Positions 1,432-5,816 of a stretch of 5,816 nt of DNA are shown here, piece after piece. The stretch lies in IMG/VR virus record IMGVR_UViG_2706794697_000003; one strand, 5' to 3'. The first letter of the stretch is position 1; every line of letters begins with the position of its first letter. The position numbers were made by a program, and so were the translations under genes. This DNA comes from a virus (taxonomy: Duplodnaviria > Heunggongvirae > Uroviricota > Caudoviricetes). The notes beneath the pieces are model-generated. The model was not told the origin of the DNA and did no database searches. It saw only the letters and a program-made list of their open reading frames with translations.

Positions 1432-3165
1432 TTAAAGCGAGCGGATCCCGTAGGACTCAATGTGGTCAGACAGCGTGTCTTCTTTCTCGTACAGCATGGC
1501 TCTGCCAACCGCCATAATCAGCGCAACTGCACCATCGATTTTGTTTTCCGCCTGCTCTTTGACGGGTTTCACCACATCATCGTTACCCGGCATGTTTTTG
1601 CCGACCACGTTGCCGATACACCAGGTCATGATGGGATTGCCGTCATGATGAAAACGTCCCGATTCAATCGCTGCTTCCAGCTCTTTCATCGGATCGGACA
1701 TATTGGTGAAGTTCTGGACGATAGTGACGGGATTCAGGTCTTCATCAGCAAGGTCATGTGACAACCCGGTCGCCCCGAAGGGGTCGATGGGTGACTCACT
1801 GACCGGGCTGATTTTGTTCGCCGCTTTGGCCTCCTCGAGGATGTAGCGATAATCCACCTCCGCACCATCGGTAACGGTCAGAACGCCCATTTCCACCCAT
1901 TTCTGAAAGCGTTCGGCTGTCCGTCGATCTTCATTTTTCTCGACGCTGTACACCGTGTCATACGGTACCCAGAAACGCGGGGCCACACTGTAGTAATGCG
2001 TTTTACCGTCAATCTCGCGGGTATAAAGTCGCGCCATGCTGTTCATATCCAGCTTACGCGCCAGGTCAAAGGCCAGAATGCACGGCTGCCCCTCGAACTG
2101 CTCAAGGGTCAGTGATTTATCCTCGCAGCTCTGCCAGCTCACCAAGTTGAAATACGCCGAACGCGCCGACACCCAGATATTGAGGTGTTTTGTTTTAAAG
2201 ACGTTTGCCAGACGGGCGTTATTTTTCGCACGCTGCTGCTGACTTAACAAAAATTCGCGATAAACCGACACGCCAATATTTGGATTGGCTTTTTCCAGCA
2301 CCTGCGGGCCGGTCCAGTCGTCACCTTCATCAACGGTATAGATGATCCCGAACAGTTCATCGTTAGGCACCGAGCCGTTGAGCATCTCGATGACTTCCCG
2401 CCGCTTGTCGTAGCACGGCCCCTCAATGTTGTACCCGGCGGTGGTGATGGCCCACATCAGTGGCTGACGTCGCGCCCCCATCCCGGTAAGCATTGTGGTA
2501 TAAAGCGCATCGGTGGCATGCTCGTGATATTCATCAACCACGGCACAGTGGGGTGATGAACCATCACCTGGGTTGCCGATCAGCGGTTCAAACCGCGCGC
2601 CATCCTCCGGACGGTTCATGTTTGAGGCGTTAACCTCAATCCCGAACGCTTCCGTCAGCATGGGTGTGCGTTTACACATCAGTCGCGCCGGGCGAAAGAC
2701 TTCCCACGCCTGTTTCTCTGTCGTGGCACCGGAATACACTTCCGCGCCAAACTCGTTATCACAGGCAAAACAATACAGGGCAACACCGGCAGAGATTGCT
2801 GATTTGCCGTTCTTACGGGGGATTTCGGTGTACACCTCCCGGAAGCGGCGCAACCGGGTGCCTTTATTGACCCAGCCAAACGCACAGCAGATCACAAATA
2901 GCTGCCACGGCTCCAGCGTGATGGGCATCCGTTTGAATGCCCACTCCCCCTTGGTGTGCGGCAACAGCTGAATAAATTTCGCGGCCCGTTCAGCCAGGTC
3001 CTTGTCGAAGCGGTAACGAAACGACTTACTTTTTTCCGCCATCAGGTCATCAAGATGGCGCTGGCAGGCCTGAATCACAAACTGGCAGGCAACAATCTTT
3101 CCGCGCACGACATCCCGGGCATACTGATTTGCAGCATTTACGTTGGGGTAAGATTTCCGGCTCAT
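1432..3165 (-). CDS. terL: Phage terminase large subunit (HK97-like ATPase plus nuclease)
   Basis: 577-aa ORF with a Walker A-like motif PRKNGKS and a Walker B-like motif AVVDEYHE in the N-terminal half, and a C-terminal acidic-residue region consistent with an RNaseH-like nuclease. Its start overlaps the terS stop as ATGA (3162-3165), indicating translational coupling. Confidence 0.9.
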
Positions 3166-3656
3166 GATTCGATAATTTTCAGAAACGGGTTAGTGGCTTT
3201 CTTCTGCCCCGCCAGGCCAATCAGACGCTGGCGGCTGCTGGGGTCGAGTCCGAGCATTGCCCCCGTGCTGCTCATCTCGGACTCCTGTTCTTTTTTGGCG
3301 GTCAGCTCCGGATTTTTGACCCTGCCGCCCATTGCACCGGTGATGGTGTTGCCCTGTATGGCAATATTTTTCACGGCACGTCGCCAGAACTCATAGGCCA
3401 CGCACCACCGCTCAAGTACCGCCAGGTCAGTCACGCACAGCAGGCCCTGACCGCAGAGTTCTTTGGTTGTCAGTTGCCACATGATCGTGGCGAGAGGGAG
3501 ATCTTCTTCAGCGAACCACTCTGGTGGCTCAACACCTTTGATGGGCGTAAAAACAGGTTCATCTTTGTTCAGGGCTCGCTTGCCGGGGTTTCCGGCCAGC
3601 GCCTTGCGCGCCGTTGGCTTGGGGCGACGCCCGGAACGCCCCGCCGTTCCAGCCAT
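3162..3656 (-). CDS. terS: Phage terminase small subunit (P27-family-like)
   Basis: ORF immediately upstream of terL and coupled to it. N-terminus [30 protein letters not shown] is basic, as expected for a DNA-binding small terminase. I place the start at ATG 3656 because AGGAG lies 8 nt upstream. The ORF-track GTG at 3665 sits inside that ribosome-binding site. Confidence 0.8.
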
Positions 3657-3695
3657 ATGCGGCACTCCTGGTTAAATTTCATTTTTCGCGGGTAT

Positions 3696-3777: not shown

Positions 3778-4128
3778 TCACCGGATTCGTTCGCGCGCTG
3801 TTTTCGCTTTATGGCAGGGCCAGCACAGACTCTGCAGGTTGCTGTCTGCGTCTGTTCCGCCATGCGCTTTCGGGATGATGTGGTCGACGGTTTTCGCCTC
3901 GCTCACCACACCGACACGCAGACACAACTGACACAGACCTTTATCGCGCTTCAGAATACGGGCACGAATCACCGTCCATTTTGAGCCATAGCCACGCTGG
4001 TGGCGGCTCAGTCCGCGCTGGTGCTGCACCCAGCCTTCACCGCGATGTTTATCGCAGTAACCCGAACTGTCTGTGGTTGTACCTGCACATCCACGCTTAC
4101 GGCAGGCACGTGGGATTAGTGATGGCAT
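3778..4128 (-). CDS. HNH endonuclease (phage packaging-associated)
   Basis: 116-aa ORF with GAGGT 5 nt upstream of its ATG. It has cysteine pairs and the motif DHIIPKAHGGTDADSNLQSLCWPCH, typical of HNH/zinc-finger nucleases. Its position immediately upstream of terS is typical of HK97-like cos phages. Confidence 0.85.
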   Translation of the reverse strand: MPSLIPRACRKRGCAGTTTDSSGYCDKHRGEGWVQHQRGLSRHQRGYGSKWTVIRARILKRDKGLCQLCLRVGVVSEAKTVDHIIPKAHGGTDADSNLQSLCWPCHKAKTARERIR

Positions 4129-4170: not shown

Positions 4171-4429
4171 CTACTTAATGCACTGAGTGCGGATATACTC
4201 CTGTGCCCCTTCCAGTTGCATCTGCATCGTCATCAGCCGCTCTCTGAGGGTGAAATAATCCCGTTCAGCGGTGTCTGCCAGTCGGGGGCTGGTTGCATTA
4301 TCCACGCCGGAGGCGGTGGTGGCTTCACGCACTGACTGACAGACTGCTTTGATGTGCAACCGACGACGACCAGCGGCAACATCAGCGCGCAGAGTTTCAT
4401 TTTCAGCTTTCGCATCAGCTAACTCCTTC
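4171..4429 (-). CDS. Rz: Rz i-spanin, C-terminal part only (5' end lost in the N-run)
   Basis: Translation KELADAKAENETLRADVAAGRRRLHIKAVCQSVREATTASGVDNATSPRLADTAERDYFTLRERLMTMQMQLEGAQEYIRTQCIK closely matches the C-terminal two-thirds of lambda Rz as I recall it. It carries Rz1 embedded in another frame. The ORF track joins it to the endolysin only because the N-run translates as X. Confidence 0.85.
4233..4415 (-). CDS. Rz1: Rz1 o-spanin (outer-membrane lipoprotein), embedded in Rz
   Basis: 60-aa ORF MRKLKMKLCALMLPLVVVGCTSKQ... with a lipobox (LVVVGC) and a proline-rich stretch (PPPPP). AAGGAG lies 8 nt upstream of the ATG. It sits entirely inside Rz in a different frame, as in lambda. Confidence 0.85.
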   Translation of the reverse strand: MRKLKMKLCALMLPLVVVGCTSKQSVSQCVKPPPPPAWIMQPAPDWQTPLNGIISPSESG

Positions 4430-4679
4430 NNNNNNNNNNNNNNNNNNNNNNNNNNNNNNNNNNNNNNNNNNNNNNNNNNNNNNNNNNNNNNNNNNNNNNN
4501 NNNNNNNNNNNNNNNNNNNNNNNNNNNNNNNNNNNNNNNNNNNNNNNNNNNNNNNNNNNNNNNNNNNNNNNNNNNNNNNNNNNNNNNNNNNNNNNNNNNN
4601 NNNNNNNNNNNNNNNNNNNNNNNNNNNNNNNNNNNNNNNNNNNNNNNNNNNNNNNNNNNNNNNNNNNNNNNNNNNNNNN
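4430..4679. other. 250-nt run of N (assembly gap or masked sequence)
   Basis: Uninterrupted n characters. It covers the 3' end of the endolysin gene and the 5' end of Rz. Confidence 1.
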
Positions 4680-4965
4680 CCGGTATATCGACTTTGATGT
4701 ACGGGTTAATTTGTCTGGCGACAGTGGCAAGGTCTTTATTCAGGAGGGCTTTGCATTCTGCTTCGGTATACGTTTTACCGAGCATGATGTCTTTTCCGGT
4801 GTGTCCGTGACATACAGTCCATACACCAATGATATCTTTGTATGGTATGTAGCTGACACCTTCCAGACCATCGTTACCACCTGGGCCAGTGATTAACACA
4901 GATGCTATAGCAACAGCCCCACCACCAATAGCAGCTGCAACAGCCTTGCGTAATGATGGCGACAT
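4680..4965 (-). CDS. R: SAR endolysin (phage-21 R-like lysozyme), N-terminal 95 aa only (3' end lost in the N-run)
   Basis: N-terminus [30 protein letters not shown] is a Gly/Ala-rich signal-anchor-release segment. It is followed by [25 protein letters not shown], the catalytic region of T4-lysozyme-like muramidases. Its ATG (4965-4963) overlaps the holin stop as TAATG. Confidence 0.85.
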
Positions 4966-5180
4966 TATTCACCTCTCGCAGCCTTACGCTTGTCTTCTCT
5001 TATTTTGAAATACAGATTTGTCAGATAAGTCAGAAGCCCCAGAAGCAGACTTCCCAGCACACCAATCGCAGCCCACTGTGATGGACTGACCTGATCCAAC
5101 CACTGCAAAAACCAGTAGCCGGCACTGCCGGCGGAGGTGCCGTAGGCAATGCCTGTTGATATTTTTTCCATCTGATACAT
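4965..5180 (-). CDS. S: Holin (phage-21 S-like pinholin), two possible starts M1 and M4
   Basis: 71-aa [74 protein letters not shown] with two transmembrane segments and a charged C-terminus. ATG codons at 5180 and 5171 match the dual-start arrangement of lambdoid holins. It is translationally coupled to the endolysin. Confidence 0.9.
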
Positions 5181-5210
5181 ATCCCGCCCCCCGACAGACC
5201 TGTGCTATCG

Positions 5211-5247
5211 GAAAGAAAAAAGGCCATCAGCAAAACTCTGATGGCCT
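5211..5247 (-). terminator. Rho-independent terminator upstream of the holin (tR'-like position)
   Basis: Perfect 10-bp inverted repeat aggccatcag (5221-5230) / ctgatggcct (5238-5247) with a 7-nt loop. On the minus strand it is followed by UUUUUUCUUUC (plus-strand gaaagaaaaaa, 5211-5220). It ends about 30 nt upstream of the holin ATG. Confidence 0.7.
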
Positions 5248-5291
5248 GAATCACCTTTACCAATATTGTATGAAAAAACACGCACGACTAA

Positions 5292-5320
5292 TTGACAATA
5301 ATTTTCATTTCCATTAAAAA
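5292..5320 (+). promoter_or_regulatory. Candidate sigma70 promoter on the plus strand
   Basis: Consensus -35 TTGACA (5292-5297), a 17-nt spacer, then TAAAAA (5315-5320). The -10 is weak because it lacks the conserved final T. It lies about 35 nt upstream of the plus-strand terminator-like hairpin. Confidence 0.25.
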
Positions 5321-5355
5321 AGATCGCGTAGCATTCTTAATTCATGAGGAACTTT

Positions 5356-5422
5356 ACCCGCCAGCAATCTGAGTAGCGAAAGCTGTTCATCCCCAATGTT
5401 TTTGCTGGCGGGTCCTTTTTTC
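5356..5422 (+). terminator. Plus-strand terminator-like structure (12-bp stem, large loop, T-tract)
   Basis: Perfect 12-bp inverted repeat acccgccagcaa (5356-5367) / ttgctggcgggt (5402-5413) followed by CCTTTTTTCT. The 34-nt loop contains a small AGC-GAAA-GCT hairpin. The T-tract follows only on the plus strand. Confidence 0.4.
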
Positions 5423-5724
5423 TACGGTCCTCCTCCCCGGAGGGGGGCATTTCATTATTTTTCTAATCGTTACTGGTGAGAAGGCGGAAGAAAAAGCCAG
5501 TTCTTCGCCCCTAAATAACAGCATGATTCCAGTCCATGCAAAATCTGATTTCCAGCTCACACATACCGAGCACTGTACAAAAAACCGCCAGCCAAGGCAG
5601 TTAAGAGTGTGTTCCCGGGGTTTGCTTAGAATATTTTGTAAGTTGTCCGAAGAGATATTTACAACACCAGAATGATGCATTATCAGTCCCCTGCCAGAGG
5701 TTCACTACGTAACCTGACCGACAA

Positions 5725-5816
5725 TGAAGTGGCACACTGAATTTGGCCACCTGAACAGAGGTGATATGCTCACCTCAGAACAACACAGGTGCTCCAATGA
5801 AAAAAAGAAATTTTAG
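5725..5816 (+). mobile_element. Left end of an IS3-family insertion sequence (IS911-like), partial
   Basis: The element starts with TGAAGTGG, a TG-initiated terminal repeat typical of the IS3 family. A 7-bp stem gaggtga/tcacctc follows, then AGGTG and an ATG at 5798 encoding MKKRNF, which matches the N-terminus of IS911 OrfA as I recall it. The element runs off the window end. Confidence 0.6.
5798..5816 (+). CDS. IS3-family transposase OrfA, first 6 codons only
   Basis: ATG at 5798 with AGGTG 7 nt upstream; translation MKKRNF, then the window ends. Confidence 0.5.

What the first reader, a model, noticed from the sequence alone, without database searches (positions are those of the whole stretch)
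5292..5422. Possible plus-strand small RNA unit antisense to the late-operon leader
A consensus -35 (TTGACA) with a 17-nt spacer and a weak -10 is followed about 35 nt downstream by a 12-bp GC-rich stem-loop with a T-tract, on the strand opposite to every phage gene here. This could specify a roughly 95-nt RNA antisense to the leader upstream of the holin, comparable in layout to known phage antisense RNAs such as lambda oop or P22 sar. I do not recognise it as a described element. The weak -10 and large loop make this speculative.
Basis: inference. Interest (0 to 1): 0.5.

Follow-up and report, generated by a model that had tools for sequence, protein, structure and literature searches.

The report
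Prophage small-RNA gene beside the holin
The flagged stretch is most likely a real but undescribed small regulatory RNA gene of a lambda-like prophage, one more member of a known group of prophage small RNAs that sit next to the lysis genes and point the opposite way.

Summary
TTGACA is at 5292-5297, followed by a 17-nt spacer and TAAAAA. A perfect 12-bp stem (5356-5367 / 5402-5413) with a 34-nt loop follows, then T6 (5416-5421). All are on the strand opposite the holin (4965-5180, minus).

The unit occurs in 1427 of 5426 complete E. coli genomes and in Shigella. It survives in prophage remnants that have lost the holin, on ColV-type plasmids next to iss and in an ST131 island. Promoter and hairpin are islands of conservation, whereas the 5' part of the predicted RNA varies.

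The promoter block ATTGACAATAAT lies at the same place and orientation upstream of the holin in E. coli O157 Sakai Sp3 and EPEC E2348/69 PP4. There it precedes EcOnc32, which was seen on a Northern blot, is very abundant on Hfq, depends on Hfq and forms RIL-seq chimeras with core mRNAs. The window carries a different transcribed body ("A-type"). That body matches no Rfam family, no Pas sRNA, PapR, AgvB or AsxR.

Best reading: a roughly 95-nt, probably Hfq-binding, trans-acting sRNA expressed in the lysogen. It is a new member of a known kind. A cis-antisense role like oop or sar is possible but unsupported. No expression data exist for this variant.

The parts
5291..5302 (+). Conserved promoter block ATTGACAATAAT, which contains the -35 hexamer TTGACA (5292-5297).
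   Evidence: It is the only TTGACA in the window. It is invariant in the alignment with E2348/69 PP4, Sakai Sp3 and IHE3034. It is also shared with the Sakai Sp5 'B-type' unit.
5315..5320 (+). -10-like hexamer TAAAAA, 17 nt after the -35.
   Evidence: Read from the sequence. The 17-nt spacing to TAAAAA is kept in all A-type and B-type variants. The hexamer fails the scanner's rule for a T at position 6. PasA has a comparable TCAGAA at 17 nt, and its reported 5' end lies 7 nt after that hexamer.
5327..5421 (+). Predicted sRNA of about 95 nt. The 5' end is inferred to within about 2 nt; the 3' end is in the T-tract.
   Evidence: The boundaries are inferred from the promoter and terminator geometry. 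The fold has z = -3.6 to -3.8. No Rfam family matches at E<=10.
5327..5355 (+). AU-rich 5' region that varies between lineages; a candidate seed region.
   Evidence: Within 5321-5355, 14 of 35 columns vary among BLAST-ascertained lineages, as many as in the flanks.
5356..5413 (+). Terminator hairpin with a perfect 12-bp stem and a 34-nt loop.
   Evidence: Arms confirmed. One of 24 stem columns varies, against 33% of flank columns (Fisher p = 2e-5 for hairpin plus tail versus flanks). Variants seen: one A-to-G change that gives G.U (L108) and one G-to-A change that gives A.C (ColV plasmid type).
5370..5389 (+). Inner 8-bp hairpin UGAGUAGC-GAAA-GCUGUUCA inside the terminator loop.
   Evidence: Present in the minimum-free-energy and centroid structures of all variants folded. 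No covariation. One variant (L040) breaks its two basal pairs.
5416..5421 (+). T6 tract, the intrinsic-terminator tail and a likely Hfq 3' binding site.
   Evidence: Read from the sequence. One of 12 tail columns (5414-5425) varies. On the minus strand the hairpin is followed by AAAGTTCC, so it terminates plus-strand transcription only.
5221..5247 (-). Context: intrinsic terminator on the late strand just upstream of the holin. It is not part of the sRNA.
   Evidence: Found. It is conserved in position in Sp3 and PP4. It carries stem-breaking changes in remnants that lack the holin.
4965..5180 (-). Context: class II (S21-like) holin gene. Its start codon lies 112 nt from the -35 of the divergent sRNA promoter.
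   Evidence: The ORF is listed. Relatives annotate it as a class II holin.

Best explanation
The stretch is an autonomous small-RNA gene of a lambdoid prophage. It lies in the region between the Q-dependent late promoter and the lysis cassette where accessory DNA ('morons') is commonly inserted, and it points away from the holin.

Inferred steps:
1. In the lysogen, sigma-70 RNA polymerase starts at about 5327 from the promoter ATTGACAATAAT-N12-TAAAAA.
2. Transcription stops at the intrinsic terminator (5356-5413 plus U6), giving an RNA of about 95 nt.
3. The RNA has a variable, AU-rich 5' part and a highly conserved 3' hairpin with a U-tail, the usual layout of Hfq-binding sRNAs.
4. It most likely binds Hfq and base-pairs in trans with host or accessory mRNAs. 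Which ones is unknown and probably depends on the lineage.

Shown here: the sequence features, their conservation, their wide distribution, and promoter and position homology to a validated sRNA gene.
Inferred: transcription of this variant, Hfq binding and trans action.
For: 1. Anatomy. The window has a consensus -35, a 17-nt spacer, an A-rich -10, a perfect 12-bp GC-rich stem and T6, all on the plus strand. The fold z-score is -3.8.

2. Distribution and retention. The unit is present in 1427 of 5426 complete E. coli genomes and in Shigella flexneri. It is retained with promoter and stem intact in remnants where the holin and lysozyme are deleted, next to iss on ColV-type plasmids and in an ST131 island.

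3. Conservation pattern. Among BLAST-ascertained lineages, hairpin plus tail vary at 6 of 70 columns against 71 of 214 in the flanks (p = 2e-5). The promoter varies at 5 of 29 columns, and 14 of 35 columns vary in 5321-5355, which holds the RNA's 5' part.

4. Promoter and position homology to a validated sRNA.
- In Sakai Sp3 and E2348/69 PP4, the holin start, the late-strand terminator and the ATTGACAATAAT block align collinearly with the window. A different body follows, ending in a CGCCAGC...GCTGGC stem plus a T-run.
- That RNA is EcOnc32. It has an Hfq CRAC peak, the second-highest peak area of the rows read in the table, a Northern band of about 112 nt and a Rho-independent terminator. Its probe is the reverse complement of that body apart from one missing C.
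- In EPEC the same RNA is counted under 'CDS' E2348C_1013. Its RNA-seq baseMean is 2064 against 5.4 for the adjacent holin. It falls by log2 2.9 in the hfq deletion strain (padj 1e-23).
- In RIL-seq it is always the second RNA of the chimera. Partners include the nlpD-E2348C_3010 intergenic region (537 chimeras), the entC 5'UTR (263) and the dnaK 5'UTR (28).

5. A third body. A 'B-type' unit in Sakai Sp5 shares 22-24 of 29 core-promoter positions and a CCGCCAGCG...CGCTGGCGG stem plus T7.

6. Same class. PasA and PasC (EcOnc51/52) have the same layout and orientation beside the holin or esterase gene, a TTGACA -35 and a weak -10 17 nt downstream. The reported 5' end of PasA fits that promoter.
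Against: - There are no expression data for this variant.
- The -10 lacks the highly conserved final T and fails the scanner's rule. The promoter-like pattern alone is at chance level.
- The stem hardly varies, so there is no covariation support. The commonest plasmid variant has an A.C mismatch in the stem.
- A covariance model of PasA/PasC scores the window unit only 8.9 bits, E = 8.4, no better than generic terminators.
- BLAST finds no similarity to the Pas, AgvB or AsxR loci.
- The unit is absent from all 50,697 sequenced phage records.
- Conservation in the IMG/VR loci is biased, because they were retrieved with patterns from the stem, loop or promoter. Only the BLAST-ascertained set is unbiased.
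- Hfq binding and trans action rest on analogy alone.
Confidence: 0.62

Rival explanations
1. The plus-strand RNA is a cis-antisense regulator of the late operon. It would pair with read-through late transcripts 147-241 nt upstream of the holin start and trigger their cleavage, or its convergent promoter would interfere with leaky late transcription. Either way it would help keep the holin silent in the lysogen.
For: - The RNA is perfectly complementary to the late-strand leader.
- In intact prophages the unit always lies directly upstream of the class II holin.
- It sits next to a late-strand terminator that already insulates the holin.
- This role is compatible with an additional trans role.
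Against: - No ORF or ribosome-binding site lies opposite the RNA. The 63-codon ORF that PGAP annotates there in some genomes is broken in the window and runs through both hairpins.
- The RNA is transcribed away from the holin and does not overlap its translation start.
- The unit stays intact, with better conservation than the late-strand terminator, in remnants with no holin left.
- The validated relatives EcOnc32 and PasA form Hfq chimeras with unlinked core mRNAs.
Confidence: 0.15
2. Only the hairpin is functional. It would be a plus-strand terminator that stops antisense transcription coming from plus-strand accessory genes such as bor/iss, or a relic of a lost accessory gene. The TTGACA would be inactive or a decayed promoter, so no discrete sRNA is made.
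For: - The -10 is poor and the promoter pattern is at chance level.
- Plus-strand genes (iss and a hypothetical gene) exist to the left in relatives.
- The hairpin is the best-conserved part.
Against: - The core promoter block is conserved across A-, B- and C-type units whose transcribed bodies and upstream flanks are unrelated.
- In the C-type that block precedes one of the most abundant Hfq-bound RNAs of EHEC and EPEC.
- The 17-nt spacing from the -35 to the -10 is kept in all variants.
Confidence: 0.12
3. The unit encodes or senses a 10-codon peptide (ATG 5344 to TAG 5376, MRNFTRQQSE). Translation of this ORF through the 5' arm of the terminator would control read-through, as in leader-peptide attenuation.
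For: - The ORF's start and stop are preserved in all A-type variants.
- The stem-breaking G-to-A change of the plasmid type is synonymous (CAG to CAA).
- The stop codon lies in the terminator loop.
Against: - There is no Shine-Dalgarno sequence upstream of the ATG.
- No plus-strand gene lies downstream to be regulated. In the intact relative, minus-strand tRNA genes follow.
- B- and C-type units have no equivalent ORF.
- With so few substitutions, preservation of a 33-nt frame is expected by chance.
Confidence: 0.03
4. A promoter-like hexamer and an inverted repeat lie together by chance in non-coding filler DNA.
For: The promoter pattern alone is not significant. There are no direct expression data.
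Against: - The fold z-score is -3.8.
- Promoter and hairpin form an island of conservation.
- The unit is present in 26% of complete E. coli genomes and is retained in remnants.
- Its promoter is homologous to that of a validated sRNA gene.
Confidence: 0.03

Closest known systems
EcOnc32 (Tree et al. 2014, Table S2; E. coli O157 Sakai prophage Sp3). The same RNA in EPEC E2348/69 PP4 is counted under 'CDS' E2348C_1013 in Pearl Mizrahi et al. 2021.
   Same: - It has the same position and orientation: directly upstream of a class II holin, divergent from it, just beyond the late-strand terminator.
- It shares the invariant promoter block ATTGACAATAAT, about 100-112 nt from the holin start.
- Its terminator stem begins with CGCCAGC at a similar distance (67 versus 78 nt from the -35) and is followed by a T6 tail.
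   Different: - The transcribed body shows no detectable similarity.
- The -10 differs (TAAAAA versus TATAGA or ATAGAA).
- The window's terminator has a 34-nt structured loop rather than an 18-nt loop.
- EcOnc32 has experimental support (Hfq CRAC, Northern blot, Hfq dependence, RIL-seq partners). The window variant has none.
PasA and PasC (EcOnc51/52) prophage sRNAs (Pearl Mizrahi et al. 2021; Zhu, Shabalina and Storz 2026 preprint).
   Same: - They lie antisense to the late operon in the region upstream of the holin. In E2348/69, PasA lies between the esterase gene and the holin; PasC's terminator abuts the esterase gene, with an IS element following in that strain.
- They have a TTGACA -35, a 17-nt spacer and a weak A-rich -10.
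- They are about 80-85 nt long and end in a GCCAGC-type terminator stem plus a U-tract.
- The proposed PasA seed, GCCAGCACCU, lies in the 5' arm of the terminator. The window has CCGCCAGCAAUC there.
   Different: - There is no BLAST similarity.
- The Pas covariance model scores the window 8.9 bits, E = 8.4.
- The promoter spacer, the body and the loop all differ.
- The published BLAST criteria for Pas variants (28-nt word, more than 75% coverage) would not retrieve this unit.
AgvB and AsxR anti-sRNAs (Rfam RF02702 and RF02703; Tree et al. 2014).
   Same: - They lie in the same accessory-gene insertion region of lambdoid prophages, antisense to the late operon.
- They combine a variable 5' part with a conserved 3' terminator part.
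- They are convergent with a late-strand STnc100-type sRNA. In IHE3034 an STnc100 copy is convergent with the A-type unit, about 250 nt away.
   Different: - The window gives no Rfam match even at E<=10, although both families are found in the Sakai control loci.
- AgvB and AsxR are 51-60 nt long and share a 42-nt 3' region that is absent here.
- The 5' part has no CA-rich GcvB-target motif.
Lambda oop RNA and P22 sar RNA (cis-antisense phage RNAs).
   Same: Each is a short RNA with its own promoter and intrinsic terminator, transcribed against a phage operon.
   Different: oop overlaps the 3' end of cII and sar overlaps the ant ribosome-binding site (established knowledge, not tested here). 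The window RNA overlaps only untranslated leader, and it persists where the downstream gene has been deleted.

Membership tests
Holin-proximal divergent sRNA genes of lambdoid prophages (EcOnc32 type) | Located directly upstream of the class II holin, on the opposite strand, just beyond the late-strand terminator. | tested here: met
   The window, E2348/69 PP4 and Sakai Sp3 align collinearly. The -35 lies 112 nt from the holin start in the window and 101 nt in PP4.
Holin-proximal divergent sRNA genes of lambdoid prophages (EcOnc32 type) | Shared promoter block ATTGACAATAAT with an A/T-rich -10 16-17 nt downstream. | tested here: met
   The block is invariant in alignment A3. The window and the B-type unit share 22-24 of 29 core-promoter positions.
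Holin-proximal divergent sRNA genes of lambdoid prophages (EcOnc32 type) | Sequence homology of the transcribed RNA body to EcOnc32. | tested here: not met
   The bodies do not align apart from the CGCCAGC stem start and the T-tail. The window therefore carries a different RNA behind a homologous promoter.
Holin-proximal divergent sRNA genes of lambdoid prophages (EcOnc32 type) | A discrete, abundant, Hfq-bound and Hfq-dependent transcript. | not testable with these tools
   This is shown for EcOnc32 / E2348C_1013 only. No transcript data are available for the window variant.
PasA/PasC sRNA family | Sequence and structure similarity to PasA/PasC. | tested here: not met
   Model R1, built from PasA, PasC, the tandem copy and EcOnc52, gives 8.9 bits and E = 8.4 for window 5329-5423. 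The unrelated minus-strand terminator scores 11.1 bits. BLAST gives no hit.
PasA/PasC sRNA family | Antisense to the late operon near the holin or esterase gene, with its own TTGACA promoter and a GCCAGC-stem terminator. | tested here: met
   Searches compared.
AgvB (RF02702) and AsxR (RF02703) | Match to the Rfam covariance model, including the conserved 3' region of about 42 nt. | tested here: not met
   No match at E<=1 over the window or at E<=10 over 5150-5816. The positive controls were found in Sakai Sp5 and Sp10.
STnc100/PasD, Esr41 and all other Rfam 15 families | Match to the covariance model. | tested here: not met
   Searches give no match. STnc100 is detected in control loci.
PapR (UPEC) / EcOnc08, 21 and 42 | Sequence identity to the PapR gene as defined by its published cloning and probe primers. 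| tested here: not met
   The PapR primers match the EcOnc08/21 locus of Sakai Sp4. They do not match the window.
Cis-antisense phage RNAs (oop, sar) | The RNA overlaps the coding region or ribosome-binding site of a specific target gene on the opposite strand. | tested here: not met
   No conserved ORF or ribosome-binding site lies opposite 5327-5421. The holin start is 147 nt away and is not overlapped.
Intrinsic (Rho-independent) terminator | A GC-rich stem directly followed by a U-tract on the transcribed strand. | tested here: met
   A 12-bp stem with 8 G-C pairs is followed by CC and T6 on the plus strand only. The loop is unusually long at 34 nt but is partly paired.
Sigma-70 promoter | -35 and -10 hexamers close to consensus at 16-18 nt spacing. 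| tested here: inconclusive
   The -35 matches 6 of 6 and the spacer is 17 nt. The -10 matches 4 of 6 and lacks the final T, so the scanner does not call the site. The pattern occurs by chance in 17% of shuffles. Support comes from conservation and from the homologous promoter position upstream of the EcOnc32 body.

The most novel reading that the evidence does not exclude
The units beside the holin form a modular cassette system. A conserved strong promoter and a GCCAGC-type terminator scaffold stay fixed next to the lysis genes, while the RNA body between them is exchanged by recombination (A-, B- and C-types, PasA, PasC). This would give each prophage lineage its own Hfq-dependent regulator. 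On this reading the A-type RNA is kept by selection on ColV virulence plasmids (next to iss), in ST131 and in Shigella because it regulates host fitness or virulence genes. It would then be an unrecognised sRNA of extraintestinal pathogenic E. coli present in about a quarter of sequenced E. coli.
Probability: 0.3. Interest if true: 0.6.

Novelty: new member of a known kind. Interest (0 to 1): 0.45.

Why it matters
Prophage-encoded Hfq sRNAs such as AgvB, AsxR, PasA-D, PapR and EcOnc32 rewire host gene expression in pathogenic E. coli. Most catalogues come from EHEC and EPEC.

This unit is a candidate for a further such RNA, and its carriers differ from those. It is present in about 26% of complete E. 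coli genomes, including ST131, strains IHE3034, APEC O18 and APEC O78, and Shigella. It also lies on ColV-type virulence plasmids next to iss, where the surrounding phage genes have decayed but the unit is intact.

It also shows that one promoter module beside the holin precedes unrelated RNA bodies in different prophages. That pattern could be used to find more sRNA genes from sequence alone.

As a practical point, some genome annotations place hypothetical proteins over these RNA genes (E2348C_1013, ECs_0817, WP_000502162.1).

Tried and rejected
1. Rfam. The whole window at E<=1 and 5150-5816 at E<=10 gave nothing for the plus-strand unit, only weak generic matches on the minus-strand terminator. 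Controls worked.

2. nmpC/lc porin promoter or IpeX idea. The K-12 DLP12 nmpC-essD intergenic region shares nothing with the window beyond the holin coding sequence.

3. PapR. I suspected it because the ST131 copy lies 2.2 kb from papI. The PapR primers define the EcOnc08/21-type RNA instead.

4. PasB. It lies between tail genes and is unrelated.

5. PasA/PasC membership by covariance model was not significant.

6. Sequenced phage records (INPHARED collection). No record carries the unit.

7. Covariation. The stem is nearly invariant, so no test was possible. The two single changes point to opposite strands: G.U on the plus strand in L108, and G.U on the minus strand in the plasmid type.

8. 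A minus-strand promoter-like site at 5482-5454 and a TACAAT at 5269-5264 are not conserved in relatives. I dropped them as evidence for a convergent late-strand sRNA.

9. The 63-codon hypothetical ORF on the late strand is broken in the window.

10. UTI89 lacks the prophage at the IHE3034 locus, so the published UTI89 Hfq co-immunoprecipitation data probably cannot be used.

11. Literature searches for the sequence itself and for 'EcOnc32' found no paper text.

12. Two stem-pattern hits in IMG/VR (L032, L047) were unrelated coding sequence.

Full report
**Setting.** The window is the late region of a lambdoid prophage, read on the minus strand. In order it holds:
- portal (82-1329);
- large terminase (1432-3165);
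- small terminase (3162-3665);
- HNH endonuclease (3778-4128);
- Rz and Rz1;
- a lysozyme gene masked by Ns (4430-4679);
- a 71-codon class II holin (4965-5180) (relatives' annotation).

An IS3-family element begins at 5725. In the nearly identical but uninterrupted prophage of E. coli CFSAN029787, the DNA beyond that point carries four tRNA genes, a DNA methyltransferase gene and Q. The finding therefore lies between the Q-dependent late promoter and the lysis genes. Tree et al. 2014 (PMC4104026) describe this stretch as an insertion site for accessory DNA ('morons') that carries convergent sRNA genes.

**The observation.**
- TTGACA is at 5292-5297 and is the only copy in the window.
- A 17-nt spacer is followed by TAAAAA at 5315-5320.
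- A perfect 12-bp inverted repeat starts 35 nt later: ACCCGCCAGCAA (5356-5367) and TTGCTGGCGGGT (5402-5413), with 34 nt between the arms.
- CC and T6 (5416-5421) follow.
- As RNA, the plus strand folds with z = -3.8, and no shuffle folds as well.
- The large loop contains an 8-bp hairpin capped by GAAA (5370-5389).
- On the minus strand no U-tract follows the hairpin, so it can terminate plus-strand transcription only.

The promoter-like site is not significant on its own. It fails the scanner's -10 rule, and the pattern arises in 17% of shuffles.

**Distribution.**
- The 146-nt unit is found in 1427 of 5426 complete E. coli genomes at 88-100% identity: 912 chromosomal and 642 plasmid places.
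- It is in Shigella flexneri and in dozens of IMG/VR prophage contigs.
- It is in none of 50,697 sequenced phage records.
- In intact prophages it lies directly upstream of the holin.
- On ColV-type plasmids it lies beside iss, and in ST131 it lies in an island near pap. In both places the holin and lysozyme are deleted and only an Rz fragment remains, yet promoter and hairpin are intact.

**Conservation.** Some loci were retrieved with patterns taken from the stem, loop or promoter. I therefore measured conservation only on six sequences found by BLAST. Variable columns were:

| Segment | Variable columns |
|---|---|
| Holin leader | 26 of 40 |
| Late-strand terminator | 6 of 27 |
| Spacer | 11 of 44 |
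| Promoter | 5 of 29 |
| 5' part of the RNA | 14 of 35 |
| Stem arms | 1 of 24 |
| Loop | 4 of 34 |
| U-tail | 1 of 12 |
| Next 45 nt downstream | 25 of 45 |

Hairpin plus tail differ from the flanks with p = 2e-5.
- Tree et al. describe the same split, a variable 5' part and a constant 3' part, for their abundant prophage sRNAs.
- There is no covariation because the stem hardly changes.
- One variant has G.U on the plus strand (L108).
- The plasmid type has an A.C mismatch, which leaves 8 GC-rich base pairs next to the U-tract.

**Known RNAs ruled out.**
- Rfam 15 gives nothing for the plus-strand unit at E<=10. AsxR, AgvB and STnc100 are recovered in control loci from Sakai.
- PapR looked likely because the ST131 copy lies near papI. 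Its published primers define the EcOnc08/21-type RNA instead.
- PasB is a tail-region RNA.
- PasA and PasC share layout, orientation, a TTGACA -35, a weak -10 and a GCCAGC-type terminator stem. However, BLAST finds no similarity, and a covariance model of that family scores the window only 8.9 bits (E = 8.4), below a generic terminator nearby.
- The K-12 nmpC-essD region is unrelated.
- No searched paper contains the sequence.

**The decisive comparison: a related unit in Sakai Sp5.** A scan of fetched loci for GCCAGC-stem terminators turned up a unit in the Stx2 prophage Sp5 of Sakai (L065, 6702 to 6585, minus strand). Its core promoter shares 22-24 of 29 positions with the window: TTGACAATAA, seven unrelated bases, then TTTTCATTAAAAA. 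Its body is unrelated, and it ends in CCGCCAGCG...CGCTGGCGG plus T7.

**The decisive comparison: EcOnc32.** In E2348/69 prophage PP4 and Sakai Sp3, the region upstream of the class II holin aligns module by module with the window. The modules are the holin start, the late-strand terminator, a spacer, the invariant block ATTGACAATAAT, a different body, a stem beginning CGCCAGC, and T6.

That body is EcOnc32 of Tree et al.
- The published Northern probe is its reverse complement apart from one missing C.
- The Hfq CRAC peak (901574-901662, minus strand) covers the transcript predicted from the promoter and terminator.
- It has the second-highest peak area of the rows read in the table, a band of about 112 nt and a Rho-independent terminator.

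In EPEC the same RNA is hidden under a 'CDS', E2348C_1013.
- Its RNA-seq baseMean is 2064, against 5.4 for the neighbouring holin.
- It falls by log2 2.9 without Hfq (padj 1e-23).
- In RIL-seq it is always the second RNA of the chimera, at 1060613-1060672 on the minus strand.
- Its partners include the nlpD-E2348C_3010 intergenic region (537 chimeras), the entC 5'UTR (263) and the dnaK 5'UTR (28).
- About 808,000 other reads are assigned to it, far more than to PasA or PasC. The column labels are inferred from the table legend.

The promoter module of the window therefore precedes, in a sister prophage, one of the most abundant Hfq-bound RNAs known in pathogenic E. coli.

**Mechanism.** My best reading is an autonomous sRNA gene.
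- It would be transcribed in the lysogen from about 5327 and terminated at the U6 tract. The RNA would be about 95 nt long, with a variable AU-rich 5' part and a conserved terminator hairpin.
- I infer Hfq binding from the U-tail after a strong stem and from the behaviour of EcOnc32, PasA and PasC.
- I infer trans action from the same relatives and from retention of the unit where no holin is left.
- Targets are unknown.
- Two candidate seeds exist. One is the variable 5' part. The other, by analogy with the PasA seed GCCAGCACCU, is the 5' stem arm CCGCCAGCAAUC.

A cis-antisense effect on leaky late transcripts cannot be excluded but has no specific support. Nothing codes opposite the RNA, and the RNA does not reach the holin start. 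A terminator-only reading conflicts with conservation of the promoter across unrelated bodies. A 10-codon ORF (5344-5376) is preserved in all A-type copies. It has no Shine-Dalgarno sequence, no downstream gene and no counterpart in the other types.

**Novelty and verdict.**
- The kind is known: sRNA genes at this insertion site in lambdoid prophages, antisense to the late operon.
- The particular promoter module precedes a validated but uncharacterised RNA, EcOnc32, which appears in no paper text.
- As far as I could find, the window's transcribed body is undescribed and is not in Rfam.
- It is a new member of a known kind. Interest is moderate, and rests mainly on its wide distribution in extraintestinal pathogenic E. 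coli, on ColV plasmids and in Shigella, and on the modular promoter/body pattern.
- The main weakness is that no expression data exist for this variant.

Noticed in passing
window 5221-5247 (minus strand), T-run 5211-5220: A textbook intrinsic terminator (perfect 10-bp stem, 7-nt loop, T6) lies on the late strand about 40 nt upstream of the holin start. It is conserved in position in Sp3 and PP4. It acquires stem-breaking changes in remnants that have lost the holin. It probably insulates the lysis genes from all but Q-modified polymerase.
   Followed up: partly
L065 (Sakai Sp5, Stx2 prophage) 6702 to 6585, minus strand: A 'B-type' unit has the same core promoter as the window, a different body of about 85 nt with a 5' GAAA-capped hairpin and a U-rich stretch, and a CCGCCAGCG...CGCTGGCGG terminator plus T7. 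It lies just after the esterase gene and is common in IMG/VR prophages. It is not in the EcOnc table. It is another candidate undescribed sRNA.
   Followed up: partly
L111 (E2348/69 PP4) 4301-4699 and L113 (Sakai Sp3) 2267-2665, minus strand: The annotated 132-codon 'hypothetical protein' (E2348C_1013 / ECs_0817) starts inside EcOnc32, and the sRNA's terminator lies within it. It is also antisense to PasD1/EcOnc13. It is probably not a real gene, and expression and RIL-seq counts assigned to it belong to the sRNA.
   Followed up: partly
L002 (IHE3034) 5494-5682, minus strand: A full STnc100 copy (Rfam, 114.5 bits) lies on the late strand about 250 nt from the A-type unit and is convergent with it. 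This mirrors the STnc100/AsxR and STnc100/AgvB pairs in Sakai. The window lineage lacks it; tRNA genes follow there instead, and in the window itself an IS element.
   Followed up: no
window 5344-5376 (plus strand): A 10-codon ORF (MRNFTRQQSE) runs from the 5' region into the terminator loop. Its start and stop are preserved in every A-type variant, and the stem-breaking G-to-A change of the plasmid type is synonymous. It has no Shine-Dalgarno sequence, so this is probably coincidence.
   Followed up: partly
window 5427-5448 (plus strand): A second GC-rich hairpin (GTCCTCCTCCCCGGAGGGGGGC) followed by T-rich sequence lies right after the terminator. The region is highly variable between lineages (25 of 45 columns), so it is unlikely to be functional.
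   Followed up: partly
window 5725-5816: The left end of an IS3-family element is inserted here, with an orfA-like ATG at 5797. From memory it resembles IS911. Uninterrupted relatives have about 136 nt and then tRNA-Gly, -Thr, -Arg and -Ile. The same IS end occurs elsewhere in Shigella flexneri contigs at 100% identity.
   Followed up: partly
window 4430-4679: A run of 250 Ns masks the middle of the lysozyme gene, between the holin and Rz.
   Followed up: no
L003 (E2348/69 PP2) 3035 to 2770, minus strand: The PasA locus holds two tandem promoter-terminator units. PasA is followed by a second unit nearly identical to Sakai EcOnc52 and similar to PasC. This explains the reported 236-nt minor PasA form.
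   Followed up: no
L006 and L010 (ColV-type plasmids) about 3001-3141; L007 and L008 (ST131) about 3001-3135: The A-type unit persists next to iss on about 640 plasmid records and near papI in ST131. In both places it is flanked by an Rz fragment and IS elements. In one plasmid (pCE20-122k) an IS1 has cut the hairpin.
   Followed up: partly
L009 (E. coli EC19) 2919-3110, minus strand: PGAP annotates a 63-codon hypothetical protein (WP_000502162.1) that runs through both the late-strand terminator and the sRNA promoter. The frame is broken in the window, so the annotation is probably spurious.
   Followed up: yes
Tree et al. 2014 Table S2 coordinates versus NC_002695.2: The published Sakai coordinates match the current RefSeq record at 0.90 and 1.18 Mb. 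They are shifted by about 135-140 nt at 1.27 and 1.94 Mb, as shown by the Rfam positions of AsxR and AgvB. Direct coordinate look-ups there land off target.
   Followed up: yes
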